64,000 nt of DNA. It comes from Candidatus Woesearchaeota archaeon. GTDB taxonomy: Archaea; Nanobdellota; Nanobdellia; Woesearchaeales; WAPY01. This document shows, piece by piece, positions 48,001 through 51,000 of the stretch. Each line of letters begins with the position of its first letter. The first letter of the stretch is position 1. Where the stretch lies: the NCBI GenBank assembly GCA_049700835.1, contig JBNAUL010000002.1, positions 272,275 through 336,274 on the forward strand, given 5' to 3'. The position numbers were made by a program.

Positions 48001-51000
48001 TGAGAAATTGGTCTCTAAATTTACTTGATTATTATATAGAAACAGAAAAAATATTCAAAGAAAAAAATGTTTGGTTATTTAAAATAGGTTATAATAAAGG
48101 GTTAGAGTTTTATGATTTTACCTTGCTACAAGGATTGATCCCTGGAACATTAGCAAATATAGATAATGGAGGATTTTCAAAGATATTAGAAACAAGTGGA
48201 TTAAAAGAAGCATTAAATCATACTTTTAATATAACAGAACAAATGAAAGGTATAAGAGATTTGATAATAGAGAAATATCACGGTGTTAGTGAAGAAGGTT
48301 ACGATATAGATTGGCTGGATCCAATTGTAGGACCTGCACAGATTAGTATGAAAATGAATTGGTTAGGACTTCATAGAACAGGAAAAAAAGGCATCCCCTA
48401 CGGCGTCATATTAAAAGAAGGTGATGGAAAAAATTTGACAGATTTAGAAGCGTCAAACATGATTTTGAAATTGTTAAATCCAACAAACAAAGAAGTTTTT
48501 GAAACAAATCAATATGGTTTGATACAACTAGAAACTATTGTGATGAGAAGTATTGCTAACCCTCTGTTTGAAGGAAGATATAAAGTTAACAAAACCACCA
48601 AAGGAGATAGTGCTGCCTTAATTCTTGTTCTTGATGATAAAACAAAGAAAAAAGTTGGAAATTTTTTGGGCATCACAAATATTAATATACAAAAATATTA
48701 TTTTATTGAAAAATTTAAGTGGGAAGAAATAGTTAGCCTTACTGACGCAGTTTATTATATGATGGCATTTAGAAGAGATCCAACTAATATAAATCCAACT
48801 GATATTGATAAAATTGCAAAAGACAAATCCTGGGTTAAAAGGATTCTTACGCATCCTGTTGGTAATCCGGCAATTTTTGATTATTTTGAAATAGAAAAAC
48901 TTTTTTCTGTTTTTAAAGGAGCAAATTCGTTTTAATGTTTTAATATTTAATAAATTAATCTTCATAAACCAACAGATTGTTTGCAAAAAAGTTGTGCGAA
49001 CCATCAGTTAAAATAGTATAAGCAACCACCTGCTGTTGGTTTATAAATATATCTTTTATTCTTGTTTTCTGCAAACCTAAAGGAGAAAAGAAGAAAATAG
49101 TATCTCCAGTTTTTAAGTTAATAACCCTTTTATAGCCTGAGTTAGTTAAAATAAAGTGATTCCAAGTAACATTTATCTCAAAATTTTGATCCGTGATTAT
49201 AGTATAAAAATTTTTGAATTCTACACTTTCAAATGATAATACCGTATTATTAACAAATATTTTTCTATTAATATCATATCCTAAAACTTGATCACCTATT
49301 CTTATCTCACTTAAGAAATTAACGCTGCCATTAGCAAGACGAATTAATGTATTTGGTAAAAGACAAGAGGTTCCACACGGCGGCGTCGGCGTCGGCGTCG
49401 ACGGCGACGGCGACGGCGTCGGCGGCGTCGGCGGCGTCGGCGTCGGCGGCAAGAATTGGAACACCGAATCGCAATCCCCTGAAGCATCGCATGTGCAATC
49501 AATGATTTTCCCATCCACTAACATCTTTGCAGTCTCTCCTGCTTTAAAACTCAATCTTGTTTTTTCATCGCAGCAATGAGGATTATAAGAAAATATTTTG
49601 TTATCGAAAATCCAATAAATCAAATTTTCATTTTTTATTTTTTGAGCAGCATTATTATCTCCATAAGGATAGTACTCGCACATTACTTTTATCTCAACAT
49701 CTTCCTGCCAATCACTCAAGTTGCCCTCATCAGTAACATTTATTGTGTAATGATTAACCCCAATGAATTTTTTGAATGCTTTGAAAGTGAAATCATTTAT
49801 TTCTTCACCTGTTTTTTTATTTTTAATAGTTAAATTTAAAACATCCTCATCAGGGTCAAAAGCAAATGGTGAGAAATCATAAACATCTTCAATCAATAAT
49901 TCTAGTGTTGGTATTTGTTGCAAAAAAGGGTTTCTGTTTTGCCTTAAGAAAACAAACTCATAATACTTCTCTCCAATTTTTGCATTTGAATCAGTGATTT
50001 TAACCATGTCATAAAGTGTTCCTTTTATGTTTTGTATGCCGAGTGTTTTGTCAGAATTAATATTTGCTCCTTCTTCTTGCATCATGAATGAAAGGTTTTT
50101 TGTGTCTCTTTCAATCAGCATTCTTATCAAGTTATATATTGAACTAAACCTTACTTTTGAATCATAAACTTTATTATTCATTTGCCTATCATAAACTATT
50201 ATTGGATAGTCTAGTTCAAACCTTGTGCTTTTTCTTGAAAAAGTAACTTTTATTTTTGCAGGGCTTTTTTCATAAATTTGTGCTCTTATGCTCTGATTCA
50301 ATTTTGAGATGTTGAAGCACTCCTTAAACTTTAATTCAGCGTAGTTTTCTAATTGTTCTTTAATTGTTATTGGTTTTTTAGGAGCGTTTCTAACATCTTC
50401 TGGTTTTAGGAAAACCATTATTGGAATTCCATAGTAGTTGAATCTTGGATATCCAGGAGGATTATCATAAGGATCTCTTATAATCCAGAACGGAACCTCA
50501 TATTTTTCAGTTCCAATGTAAGCGCTTCTTGTTATGTTTGTTCCAAGGATTGTTATTGGGAATTCTGTTAATCCTCCTTGGTAAGAGTAAATGTAACCTC
50601 CTTGCTTTCCAATAAGGTTTAATGCTTTTTCAGCAGAGATTTCCAAGCAATCTTGTACTGTTGTGTCAATCTGTTGAATAATGCTTTTTCTATTGGAAGC
50701 AGTTGTTATGTTTGCTCTTAGTTTTGTGTTGTAAAAAGAAAAAGCAAGTATGAATGCAAGGATTATCATTAATAGAACAACGATTCCAATTATTATGAAG
50801 ATTGAGAGTTGCGCTTTCTTGCTTGTCATTTAAAAACAGCACCTCTTTTTTATTAAAAAATATAAAAAAATTCTTGTATTTAAAAATTTTTTGAATATTT
50901 TTAGGCTAATTAAAAAGATTTAAATATTAGAAGTAATTTTTGGGTTTTAGAAAAAATTGGCAAGCTGACAAACAAAAAAGGTGGGATTGTGGGATATGAA

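What a model noticed while it worked through the whole genome (the two positions that open the first line are those of the whole stretch)
48955..50829. Pilin-like surface protein ending in a Hedgehog/BIL-type Hint autoprocessing domain
g00788 (624 aa) starts with a type-IV-pilin-like signal (KKAQLSIF + one hydrophobic helix) shared with its paralogues g00906 and g00972, but unlike them and unlike its homologues in other Woesearchaeales it continues through an 86%-GC stretch coding a Pro/Thr linker into a complete Hint (Hedgehog/intein, 'bacterial intein-like') module that begins with Cys (CLLPNT...), keeps the TxNH block and ends the protein a few residues after the HNFFANNLLV block. With no C-extein the module cannot splice; by analogy with Hedgehog and BIL domains it should cleave, or transfer to a nucleophile, the surface domain at the Ser-Cys junction. 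Further Hint modules behind Pro/Thr linkers lie at the broken start [...]
Evidence so far: Pfam (below gathering cut): Hint 28.8 bits (cut 29.7) at 488-565, Intein_splicing 21.1, PT-HINT 17.2 at 496-617; g00995 Intein_splicing 27.6 bits. phmmer of residues 470-624 against PDB chains: entries 6y75 and 6tmm (150-156-aa chains; that they are BIL/Hint domains is recalled), E 2e-7, aligned over 21-153 of 155 including both terminal blocks; mini-inteins (4o1r, 7cfv) E 4e-4..1.5e-3; Hedgehog 1at0 E 0.14. Ten GTDB relatives align only within residues 1-463; UniRef50 matches to 484-622 are bacterial proteins, one named polymorphic toxin-type HINT. GC 0.86 window at C2:321620-321770; sequence read in calls 59 and 107; paralogue graph call 106.
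(Added by a program. Inside this text positions count along the whole contig: contig position 272,275 is position 1 of the stretch shown here. "Call 12" and the like, gene names such as g00115 and contig names such as C1 are that model's own, and its searches are not shown. The text may have been shortened before it was handed on; [...] marks where a part breaks off. The agent that wrote the report below was given it as the finding of a first reader that could run no searches.)

Follow-up and report, generated by a model that had tools for sequence, protein, structure and literature searches.

The report
Archaeal surface protein ending in Hint
A membrane-anchored, pilin-like surface protein of a tiny hot-spring archaeon ends in a self-cutting Hint (intein-like) domain that has lost the residues needed for splicing, so it can probably only cut itself off or pass the protein's new end to another molecule.

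Summary
Window 48955-50829 (-) encodes a 624-aa protein with four parts: a class-III (pilin-like) signal, a ~450-aa body with an Ig/cadherin-like part and a Cys-rich tail, a 73-nt 86%-GC Pro/Thr linker, and a C-terminal Hint domain.

The Hint call is now firm:
- Scanned alone, the domain passes Pfam's Hint cut-off.
- An alignment-based AlphaFold2 model has pLDDT 93.7.
- Its best PDB match is the Tetrahymena BIL2 domain.
- 1482 library representatives match at E<=1e-3.

Cys1 (C489) and the TxxH block (T555, H558) are kept. The terminal His-Asn and the +1 nucleophile are replaced by Tyr-Glu-Asp-stop. This rules out splicing and C-terminal cleavage and leaves only chemistry at the Ser488-Cys489 junction. 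That chemistry is untested.

Two sub-claims fail. The module is not complete. It is also not unique to this protein: two close homologues carry a Hint, and NCBI already names them "Hint domain-containing protein".

Terminal Hints also cap other Woesearchaeal surface proteins and 34 of 150 library representatives, including true type IV pilins. My searches found this pairing in print only as one supplementary-table row.

Verdict: a new variant of a known kind, of moderate interest.

The parts
48955..50829 (-). Whole gene: 624 codons plus the stop codon (48955-48957)
50731..50829 (-). Residues 1-33: short Lys-rich leader, KKA|Q putative prepilin-peptidase site, hydrophobic helix (class-III / type-IV-pilin-like signal)
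   Evidence: Sequence. K4 and Q7 are invariant or nearly invariant in the family. A helix spans 3-33 in the model. A Peptidase_A24 gene lies in the genome. There is no Pfam pilin match.
49465..50730 (-). Residues 34-455: extracellular body of no known family. It has a long second helix, an alpha/beta part, a beta-sandwich and a Cys-rich tail.
   Evidence: No Pfam family. Homologues are Woesearchaeota proteins only. Model pLDDT is 71.6. Foldseek gives only weak Ig/cadherin/adhesin matches.
49672..49917 (-). Residues ~305-386: Ig/cadherin-like beta-sandwich with the invariant DPDED motif (D325-D329)
   Evidence: Invariant columns; strands in the model; cadherin and SraP matches; Big_9 on 14-16% of members of the nearest Atlas clusters
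49378..49450 (-). Pro/Thr/Ser linker encoded by a (NCG)n tandem array, 86.3% GC; replaced by a Glu-rich linker in the 96%-identical homologue
   Evidence: public contigs of run X1 stop on both sides of it
49363..49368 (-). Ser488-Cys489: predicted scissile junction; Cys489 is Hint block A Cys1
   Evidence: Cys nearly invariant in alignment A2
48964..49365 (-). Residues 489-622: Hint domain, BIL-type
   Evidence: Pfam Hint 32.6 bits for the domain alone. PDB phmmer. 1482 library matches. AlphaFold2 pLDDT 93.7. Foldseek top match BIL2, E 1e-11.
49156..49167 (-). T555-W-N-H558: Hint block B (TxxH)
   Evidence: The only two invariant columns of the 33-sequence alignment A2
48958..48996 (-). HNFFANNLLVYED: blocks F/G. 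Tyr-Glu stands where relatives have the terminal His-Asn, Asp stands at +1, and the stop follows.
   Evidence: The last 12 residues are identical in P0014, which is 58% identical overall.

Best explanation
The gene encodes an exported surface protein. It is held in the membrane, or in a type-IV-like fibre, by a class-III (pilin-like) N-terminal helix.

Its extracellular body contains an Ig/cadherin-like domain and a Cys-rich tail. A length-variable Pro/Thr linker joins the body to a C-terminal BIL-type Hint domain.

The Hint keeps the residues for the first step of Hint chemistry: Cys489 and Thr555/His558. That step is an N-to-S acyl shift, which turns the Ser488-Cys489 peptide bond into a thioester.

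The terminal Asn and any +1 nucleophile are missing. Asn cyclisation, C-terminal cleavage and splicing are therefore impossible.

The thioester can only be resolved from outside, in one of two ways:
- By water or a thiol. The 136-residue Hint then falls off and the surface domain keeps a free C-terminus.
- By an amine or hydroxyl of another molecule. The surface domain then becomes covalently linked through its C-terminus, as the related Tetrahymena BIL2 does with a lysine.

If the domain is active, I put plain release at about 55% and ligation at about 45%.

Shown here: the anatomy, the fold, the retained and lost residues, and the recurrence of the architecture. Inferred: export, signal cleavage, catalysis and the acceptor.
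For: Anatomy.

Hint identity:
- Pfam Hint is 32.6 bits (cut-off 29.7) when the domain is scanned alone.
- phmmer against the PDB gives BIL2 at E 2e-7 over the whole domain.
- 1482 representatives match at E<=1e-3, 134 of them at <=1e-10.
- The AlphaFold2 model has pLDDT 93.7.
- Foldseek gives BIL2 at E 1e-11 with TM 0.76-0.78, then mini-inteins, the C. thermocellum BIL (2lwy) and Hedgehog 1at0.

Catalytic residues:
- T and H of TxxH are the only invariant columns in the 33-row alignment, and Cys1 is nearly invariant. All three are present here.
- His-Asn is nearly invariant in relatives but is Tyr-Glu here.
- The Asn-less ending is conserved. P0014 is only 58% identical yet has the same last 12 residues, plus Cys1 and TxxH. 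P0002 ends YEH.

Recurrence of terminal Hints:
- 34 of 150 listed representatives end within 15 residues of their last Hint.
- Other Woesearchaeal surface proteins do so too: L014/L033, L024/L032, L030 and L020.
- The last Hint of L033 and that of the C4 locus also lack His-Asn.

Extracellular location:
- The KK[AGS]Q + hydrophobic helix motif is conserved across 12 family members.
- A Peptidase_A24 gene scores 61 bits in the genome.
- The body is Cys-rich and Ig-like.

Precedent for ligation: passages of PMC8616854 say that BIL2 forms an isopeptide bond between its N-extein and a lysine.
Against: No experiment shows cleavage for this protein or any close relative.

The whole-protein Pfam score is just under the cut-off (28.8 against 29.7).

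The pilin reading is weak in three ways:
- Pfam gives no pilin family match.
- No pilus assembly genes lie among the 16 neighbouring ORFs scanned, which are housekeeping genes.
- Only 3 ORFs in the genome carry the strict motif.

The Hints of the window protein and of the same-genus homologue P0004 are 29% identical, while their bodies are 68% identical. The closest Hint-less homologue, P0003, has a 72%-identical body. The module is therefore dispensable and swappable, which also fits a passenger element.

The second Hint locus in this genome is decayed.

No public contig that I laid spans the linker joining body and Hint in this exact allele.

No acceptor is identified.
Confidence: 0.6

Rival explanations
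1. The terminal Hint is a leftover. It is the last unit of a tandem-Hint or polymorphic-toxin-like cassette that lost its downstream module. It is now neutral or decaying and contributes nothing to the surface protein.
For: Most relatives carry Hints in tandem arrays: 107 of 150 have 2 or more stretches. In polymorphic toxins the HINT sits just before a C-terminal toxin (passages of PMC3482391). The genome's other Hint locus is broken by stops and frameshifts. Close homologues do without a Hint (P0003, P0005-P0008). The His-Asn is lost.
Against: Cys1 and TxxH are intact, and the frame is open over 136 residues in a 32%-GC genome. The Asn-less ending is letter-for-letter conserved in a 58%-identical relative. 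Terminal Hints recur in 34 of 150 representatives, and 27 of those 34 still keep His-Asn. This looks like a maintained architecture. There is no trace of a toxin or immunity gene downstream: the next gene is a convergent 1067-aa surface protein 19 nt away.
Confidence: 0.17
2. The Hint fold is kept as a non-catalytic binding or structural module at the tip of the surface protein. No bond is broken.
For: The block-G residues are lost. The block-F His of the window (SHNFF) is Asp in P0014. Cys485 lies four residues before Cys1 in the window, P0002 and P0014. Outside the cell it could lock Cys1 in a disulfide.
Against: The residues retained are exactly those needed for the acyl shift and nothing else. 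A purely structural role would not demand the Cys1-Thr-His triad. Cys at -4 is only weakly enriched in the wider family: 14 of 173 junctions, against 2-12 at other positions.
Confidence: 0.15
3. The fusion is an assembly artefact. Body and Hint belong to different genes or strains and were joined across the GC-rich repeat.
For: The two contigs of run X1 laid on the stretch end at 49377 and 49513, on either side of the linker. The linker is compositionally unique in the genome.
Against: The same body-Hint order is found in one ORF on two independently assembled records with other linkers: P0002 on a 76.5-kb contig and P0004 on a 13.2-kb contig. P0004 is also seen in genome G286. The frame is kept through the repeat.
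Confidence: 0.03

Closest known systems
BIL2 domain of the Tetrahymena thermophila BUBL1 polyubiquitin-like locus (PDB 6Y75, 6TMM)
   Same: Best sequence match (E 2e-7) and best structure match (E 1e-11, 30% identity, TM 0.76-0.78). It is a Hint domain that starts with Cys and has TxxH. It hands its N-extein to an outside amine rather than splicing canonically (passages of PMC8616854).
   Different: BIL2 is eukaryotic and intracellular. It sits between two ubiquitin-like domains and keeps its terminal Asn (the crystallised mutant is C1A-N143A). The window's Hint is archaeal, presumably extracellular, terminal and Asn-less.
A-type bacterial intein-like (BIL) domains, e.g. Clostridium thermocellum BIL (PDB 2LWY)
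   Same: Same fold (E 2e-9). The nearest library relatives have the pattern CFLPGT...FANGxxVHN|K without a +1 nucleophile. They lie in variable regions of non-conserved secreted proteins, as the review PMC7765530 describes (passages). The window protein's C-terminal region is likewise variable among close homologues.
   Different: The review states that A-type BILs have a highly conserved C-terminal His-Asn, which the window's domain lacks. The host here is an archaeon, and the domain is the very end of the protein.
Hedgehog C-terminal autoprocessing domain (Hog/Hint, PDB 1AT0)
   Same: A C-terminal Hint that cleaves only at its N-terminal Cys junction and transfers the upstream domain to a nucleophile. 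It has no terminal Asn chemistry. The fold matches at E 9e-9.
   Different: Sequence similarity is weak (E 0.14). Hedgehog has a sterol-recognition region after the Hint (PMC7765530), whereas here only two residues follow.
PT-HINT of bacterial polymorphic toxins (Pfam PF07591)
   Same: A Hint behind a stalk or linker in exported, hypervariable proteins. Many library relatives score strongly for PF07591.
   Different: PF07591 is below its cut-off here (17.2 and 21.1 bits against 27.7). The defining downstream toxin domain is absent.
Modular type IV pilins (pilin module + grafted C-terminal module; Raynaud et al. 2021, PMC8179133)
   Same: A class-III signal plus a hydrophobic helix carries an unrelated C-terminal module. 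Library relatives include true N_methyl pilins ending in a Hint: P0069, P0157 and P0097.
   Different: That survey covers bacterial IPR012902 proteins. Hint and intein do not occur in its main text. Its Dataset S1 has a single row, 'IPR012902 - PF07591', with 1 protein. The window protein has no Pfam pilin match, and its body is not a recognisable pilin fold.
Mini-inteins (NpuDnaB, SspDnaB, gp41-1)
   Same: Same fold at TM 0.73-0.82, with blocks A and B.
   Different: There is no C-extein, no terminal Asn and no conserved host gene, so this is not an intein.

Membership tests
Hint (Hedgehog/intein) superfamily | Sequence match to a curated Hint profile over its cut-off | tested here: met
   PF01079 scores 32.6 bits against a cut-off of 29.7 for residues 471-624 scanned alone. 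The whole protein scores 28.8, just under the cut-off.
Hint (Hedgehog/intein) superfamily | Hint beta-fold | tested here: met
   AlphaFold2 on a 33-row alignment gives pLDDT 93.7 and an all-beta model. Foldseek finds 69 PDB matches at E<=1e-3. All 45 listed are BIL, intein or Hedgehog Hint structures.
Hint (Hedgehog/intein) superfamily | Block A nucleophile (Cys/Ser 1) and block B TxxH | tested here: met
   C489, T555 and H558 are present. T and H are invariant and Cys nearly invariant in alignment A2.
Canonical (class 1) intein | Terminal His-Asn and a Cys/Ser/Thr at +1 of a C-extein | tested here: not met
   The protein ends ...NNLLV-Y-E-D-stop, where relatives have H and N.
Canonical (class 1) intein | Insertion inside a conserved host protein that is restored by splicing | tested here: not met
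   The domain is the C-terminal end of a non-conserved protein. Homologues with 72% and 45% identical bodies lack it.
A-type BIL domain | Closest relatives are BIL domains in variable parts of secreted, non-conserved proteins | tested here: met
   Best PDB matches are BIL2, with Cth BIL also matching. Library relatives are CFLPGT...VHN|K units in exported proteins. The C-terminal region varies among close homologues.
A-type BIL domain | Highly conserved C-terminal His-Asn (as described in PMC7765530) | tested here: not met
   Tyr-Glu stands at these positions. It is the same in P0002 and P0014.
Hedgehog/Hog autoprocessing domain | Hint followed by a sterol/adduct-recognition region | tested here: not met
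   Only two residues follow the Hint.
Polymorphic-toxin PT-HINT | PF07591 over its cut-off and a toxin domain directly downstream | tested here: not met
   PF07591 scores 17.2 and 21.1 bits against a cut-off of 27.7. Nothing lies downstream. The architecture rule comes from PMC3482391.
Type IV pilin-like (class III signal peptide) protein | Short charged leader, [KR][GA] before a small or Gln residue, then about 20 hydrophobic residues | tested here: met
   The sequence is MTSKKA|QLSIFIIIGIVVLLMIILAFILAF. The motif is conserved in 12 family members. That this is the motif which prepilin peptidases recognise is recalled, not taken from a call.
Type IV pilin-like (class III signal peptide) protein | Match to a curated pilin N-terminal profile (PF07963, PF07790) | tested here: not met
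   No such family appears at E<=1.
Type IV pilin-like (class III signal peptide) protein | Prepilin peptidase encoded in the genome | tested here: met
   PF01478 scores 61 bits at G000:C1:444331-444633.
Type IV pilin-like (class III signal peptide) protein | Linked pilus assembly genes, or assembly into a fibre | tested here: inconclusive
   None is present among the 16 neighbouring ORFs scanned. A genome-wide search for the ATPase and platform protein was not made. Assembly cannot be tested with these tools.

The most novel reading that the evidence does not exclude
Terminal Hint domains on exported proteins may form an ATP-free and sortase-free way of making covalent bonds outside the cell. 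The exported proteins include type IV pilins of bacteria and pilin-like proteins of DPANN archaea. The Hint would arm the C-terminus of the surface protein or pilin as a thioester. That thioester would then be captured by an amine on the cell's own envelope, on a neighbouring subunit or on a host cell. For an episymbiotic Woesearchaeon the result would be a covalent adhesin.
Probability: 0.15. Interest if true: 0.85.

Novelty: new variant of a known kind. Interest (0 to 1): 0.5.

Why it matters
Hint domains outside inteins are well known in bacteria (BIL domains, polymorphic toxins) and in eukaryotes (Hedgehog, BUBL). In archaea they are hardly described.

Here a BIL-type Hint forms the very end of an archaeal surface protein. 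It has shed exactly the residues for C-terminal chemistry while keeping those for thioester formation. This is the Hedgehog solution, reached in a prokaryotic lineage.

The same end-capping recurs in two places:
- on other Woesearchaeal surface proteins;
- on bona fide type IV pilins in the protein library.

In the papers I could search, this pairing appears only as one row of a supplementary table.

If the thioester is passed to an acceptor, this would be a simple extracellular ligation device. It would bear on how small symbiotic archaea fix proteins to their own or their host's surface. This genome has no exosortase/archaeosortase match (98.7% complete).

If the thioester is only hydrolysed, the domain is a self-removing pro-domain of modest interest.

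The heat-adapted, Asn-less, N-cleaving mini-Hint could also be of use as a protein-engineering tag.

Tried and rejected
- The search for related loci with the Hint domain gave one 30%-identical locus in metagenome contigs (L031, not followed) and none in genome contigs.
- The listing of cluster members gave no organism names for ten representatives. The taxonomy of the wider family therefore stays unknown.
- Is a pilin-like N-terminus enriched among terminal-Hint proteins? By regex it is 5 of 34 against 6 of 116, Fisher p = 0.13, which is not significant. About a dozen more looked pilin-like by eye only.
- Is a Cys four residues before Cys1 (a possible disulfide trap) a family feature? It occurs at 14 of 173 junctions. 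This is the highest of ten positions but only weakly so. I kept it as a passing note.
- The fold of the N-terminal body gave no convincing whole-domain match, only Ig/cadherin-like pieces. NCBIfam gave nothing over its cut-offs.
- Sequencing runs: no RNA holder was listed. The contigs laid do not cover 49378-49512.
- Complex prediction was not used, because no specific partner could be named.
- I considered and rejected a Hedgehog-like lipid transfer as the default, because no adduct-recognition region is present.
- I considered and rejected a true intein, because there is no C-extein.
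Full report
**What is there**

Window 48955-50829 on the minus strand is an open frame of 624 codons. 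It lies between a convergent 1067-aa gene with copper-amine-oxidase-N1 repeats and a divergent ftsZ. The wider neighbourhood is housekeeping: L11, S3Ae, SecE-like, Spt5/NusG, a NOG1-type GTPase. None of the 16 neighbouring ORFs scanned is a pilus gene.

The protein begins MTSKKAQLSIFIIIGIVVLLMIILAFILAF. The genome is 1.07 Mb, 32% GC and 98.7% complete. Runs holding near-identical DNA are labelled hot springs metagenome.

**The N-terminal part**

Eleven database proteins match residues 1-470. Those that carry a name are Candidatus Woesearchaeota.

In alignments of 8 and 12 family members the motif K-K-[A/G/S]-Q-[L/I/V]-[S/T]-[I/L/V]-[F/Y] plus a hydrophobic helix is conserved. Q7 and G15 are invariant and K4 is nearly so. 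I recall this as the shape of an archaeal class-III (prepilin-type) signal; no call gave that label.

Support for the pilin-like reading:
- The genome encodes a Peptidase_A24 homologue at 61 bits.
- Two paralogues share the signal.

Against a strict pilin reading:
- Pfam gives no pilin family.
- Only three ORFs in the genome carry the strict motif.
- No assembly genes are linked.

The body has no Pfam or NCBIfam family. An AlphaFold2 model from 12 sequences is moderate (pLDDT 71.6). It shows two long helices (3-33, 36-75), an alpha/beta part and beta-sandwiches. Foldseek finds only weak Ig/cadherin/adhesin-like matches. The invariant DPDED motif (325-329) sits in the sandwich. The nearest Atlas clusters are Woesearchaeota hypothetical proteins, of which 14-16% carry Big_9.

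I read this as an exported, membrane- or fibre-anchored surface protein of unknown binding function.

**The linker**

Residues 462-484 (PTPTPPTPPTPSPSPSTPTPTPP) are encoded at 49378-49450 by a tandem array of period 6/9/15. The array is 86.3% GC.

All 23 Pro/Thr/Ser codons of the linker are CCG, ACG or TCG. In the rest of the gene CCG is 2 of 21 Pro codons and ACG is 2 of 39 Thr codons.

It is the only 60-nt stretch with GC >= 0.72 in the whole genome.

In P0002, which is 96% identical over the protein, the stretch FLPPTPTPPTPPTPSPSPSTPTPTPP is replaced by SLPEEPEEEETV.

The two contigs of public run X1 that I laid carry P0002-like variants. They end at 49377 and 49513, on either side of the linker. 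This would fit a polymorphic site, but it also means I have no independent cover of this allele's linker. The periods are multiples of three, so the array changes length and not frame.

**The Hint domain**

Residues 489-622 are a Hint domain. The evidence:
- Scanned alone, residues 471-624 score 32.6 bits for Pfam Hint (cut-off 29.7). The whole protein scores 28.8.
- phmmer against PDB sequences gives 6y75/6tmm at E 2e-7 over the whole domain.
- Passages of PMC8616854 identify these entries as the BIL2 domain of the Tetrahymena thermophila BUBL1 locus. They say it forms an isopeptide bond between its N-extein and a lysine.
- An exhaustive search of 1.84 billion representatives gives 1482 matches at E<=1e-3 and 134 at <=1e-10.
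- With a 33-row alignment of these, AlphaFold2 gives pLDDT 93.7.
- Foldseek ranks BIL2 first (E 1e-11, 30% identity, TM 0.76-0.78). Mini-inteins, the Clostridium thermocellum BIL domain (2lwy) and Hedgehog 1at0 follow.

**Which residues are kept and which are lost**

In the 33-row alignment the only invariant columns are T85 and H88 of the domain, which are T555 and H558 (block B, TxxH). Cys19, which is C489 (block A, Cys1), is nearly invariant. All three are present in the window's protein.

The two other nearly invariant catalytic columns are the terminal His-Asn. Here they are Tyr-Glu, followed by Asp and the stop.

So the domain can in principle make the thioester at Ser488-Cys489. It cannot cyclise an Asn, cleave at its C-terminus or splice.

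The ending is not a one-off lesion. P0014 is 58% identical, keeps Cys1 and TxxH, and has the identical last twelve residues NFFANNLLVYED. P0002 ends YEH.

**Context in relatives**

Of the 11 homologues of the body, 2 carry a Hint (P0002, P0004). NCBI names both 'Hint domain-containing protein'. P0004 is also found in a same-genus genome (G286).

P0004's body is 68% identical to the window's, but its Hint is only 29% identical. Its Hint keeps His-Asn and is followed by seven residues. P0003 (72% identical body) and P0005-P0008 have no Hint. P0003 and P0006 end in Cys-rich tails instead.

The C-terminal region is thus a variable slot. This is how the review PMC7765530 describes the setting of BIL domains (passages).

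In a sample of 300 other genomes of the same order, 50 have a match at E<=1e-3. I read 19 of those loci:
- Four are true inteins in release-factor-like ORFs.
- The other fifteen lie in other, mostly long ORFs; several begin with a signal peptide or membrane anchor or carry Cys-rich stretches.
- Five of those ORFs end within 20 residues of a Hint: L014, L020, L024, L027 and L030.

I then fetched two full ORFs:
- A 1297-aa Cys-rich protein ending ...VHNDK.
- A 1297-aa Sec-signal protein with two Hints. The first keeps His-Asn. The terminal one ends ...GMLSLDS and lacks it.

The genome's second Hint locus, at the start of contig C4, is a tandem pair broken by stops and frameshifts. Its last unit ends ...GIVFKQ, again without His-Asn.

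**The wider family**

I ran a local phmmer on the 150 best representatives. The number of Hint stretches per protein is:

| Stretches | Proteins |
|---|---|
| 1 | 43 |
| 2 | 63 |
| 3 | 34 |
| 4 | 9 |
| 6 | 1 |

The units typically read CFLPGT...FANGxxVHN|KGG(G)C, which is a BIL pattern without a +1 nucleophile.

Thirty-four of the 150 end within 15 residues of their last Hint. Of those 34:
- 27 keep His-Asn.
- 7 do not, and 5 of these 7 have no Asn at that position (read from the list).

Some terminal-Hint proteins are small type IV pilins:
- P0069 (275 aa) and P0157 (271 aa) begin ...GFTLLE and pass Pfam N_methyl. P0097 does too.
- P0023 and P0072 pass the archaeal DUF7289.
- P0071 and P0072 are sub-threshold for Pilin_N.

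These results come, in which I scanned 20 of the 150. I picked 19 for pilin-like N-termini and added P0013.

A regex finds pilin-like N-termini in 11 of 150: 5 of 34 terminal against 6 of 116 others. This is not significant (p = 0.13).

So the pilin-Hint pairing recurs but is not specific. Terminal Hints cap exported proteins with several kinds of signal.

**Mechanism**

Shown: the anatomy, the fold, the retained triad, the lost block G, and the recurrence.

Inferred:
1. The protein is exported and the signal is cleaved before Gln7.
2. An N-to-S acyl shift takes place at Ser488-Cys489.
3. The thioester is resolved by an outside nucleophile.
4. The 136-residue Hint is released.

Whether the acyl group goes to water or to an acceptor is open. 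Two known systems use a Hint thioester for ligation: the nearest solved relative and Hedgehog. This genome has no exosortase/archaeosortase match, so an autocatalytic anchor would have a use.

However, there is no adduct-recognition region, no identified acceptor and no experiment. I give activity at the N-junction 0.6. Within that, I put plain release slightly ahead of ligation.

The rivals are a decaying leftover of a tandem or toxin cassette (0.17), a non-catalytic module, possibly with Cys485-Cys489 locked (0.15), and an assembly artefact (0.03).

**What is known and what is new**

Already known:
- Hint/BIL domains in variable secreted bacterial proteins (PMC7765530, passages).
- HINT releasing peptidases of polymorphic toxins (PMC3482391, passages). 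That paper calls such systems rare in archaea.

Literature searches:
- Hint domain / archaea / bacterial intein-like.
- HINT / polymorphic toxin / archaea / DPANN.
- pilin terms with Hint or intein-like.
- 'pilin' + 'Hint domain'. This gave 2 papers, neither on this topic by its title and abstract start.

The listings I saw from these searches showed no description of a terminal Hint on an archaeal surface protein or on a pilin.

The modular-pilin survey PMC8179133 has no occurrence of Hint or intein in its main text. Its Dataset S1 has one row, 'IPR012902 - PF07591', with 1 protein.

I recall a 2019 paper on archaeal polymorphic toxins but did not find it in the library and did not read it. 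It may bear on the archaeal claim.

The gene product itself is already labelled as Hint-containing in NCBI homologues.

I therefore rate this a new variant of a known kind: an archaeal, terminal, Asn-less BIL-type Hint on a pilin-like surface protein. Interest is 0.5.

Noticed in passing
L002 (G000:C4:1-1044), outside the window: A second Hint locus sits at a contig start. A Pro/Thr/Tyr-rich stretch is followed by two tandem Hint units. The first unit is broken by two stops and a frameshift and ends VLVHN|GAAPSP. The second is intact from SSCFSGEE to ...LVEGIVFKQ-stop and lacks His-Asn. It may be a pseudogene or carry errors at the contig end.
   Followed up: partly
L017, L022, L025, L028 (genomes G240, G293, G112, G094 of the same order): True inteins (C...VHN|S) are inserted right after the GGQ motif of release-factor-like (aRF1-type) ORFs of about 516-528 aa. 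L025 comes from G112, which was flagged as unpublished, so that one case may not be published without the depositors' leave.
   Followed up: no
Proteins P0013, P0015-P0018, P0021, P0025 and many others: A large family of proteins has a Sec-type signal that runs straight into ...ARGGGGC. This is followed by 2-4 tandem BIL-type Hints (each ...VHN|KGG(G)C) and a C-terminal Tim44-like domain (P0013: PF04280, 41.7 bits). The organisms are unknown. The purpose of a self-dismantling Hint array is unclear.
   Followed up: partly
Proteins P0069, P0157, P0097 (library representatives): These are bona fide type IV pilins (N_methyl over its cut-off, G|FTLLE/FTLVE) of 271-553 aa whose C-terminal half is one or two Hint domains. 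In P0069 and P0157 it ends 2-6 residues after His-Asn; in P0097 about 20 residues follow the last Hint. My searches found this architecture in print only as one row of a supplementary table.
   Followed up: partly
window 49378-49450: The (NCG)n linker is the only 60-nt stretch with GC >= 0.72 in a 1.07-Mb, 32%-GC genome. A 96%-identical allele has a Glu-rich linker instead. The origin of such a compositionally foreign in-frame repeat is unexplained.
   Followed up: partly
window 49363-49377 (residues 485-489, C-G-T-S-C): A Cys four residues before Cys1 is conserved in the window protein, P0002 (CGISC) and P0014 (CSTSC). It could form a disulfide with the catalytic Cys outside the cell. In the wider family Cys at -4 occurs at 14 of 173 junctions.
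   Followed up: partly
window 45732-48935 (+): The convergent neighbour is a 1067-aa protein with a membrane helix and two copper-amine-oxidase-N1 repeats (177.6 bits). The rest of it has no family. It ends 19 nt from the stop of the Hint gene.
   Followed up: no
L002 around 1125-1380: Translations show a run of X, so part of contig C4 is masked or N-filled. The genome holds 1800 N in all.
   Followed up: no
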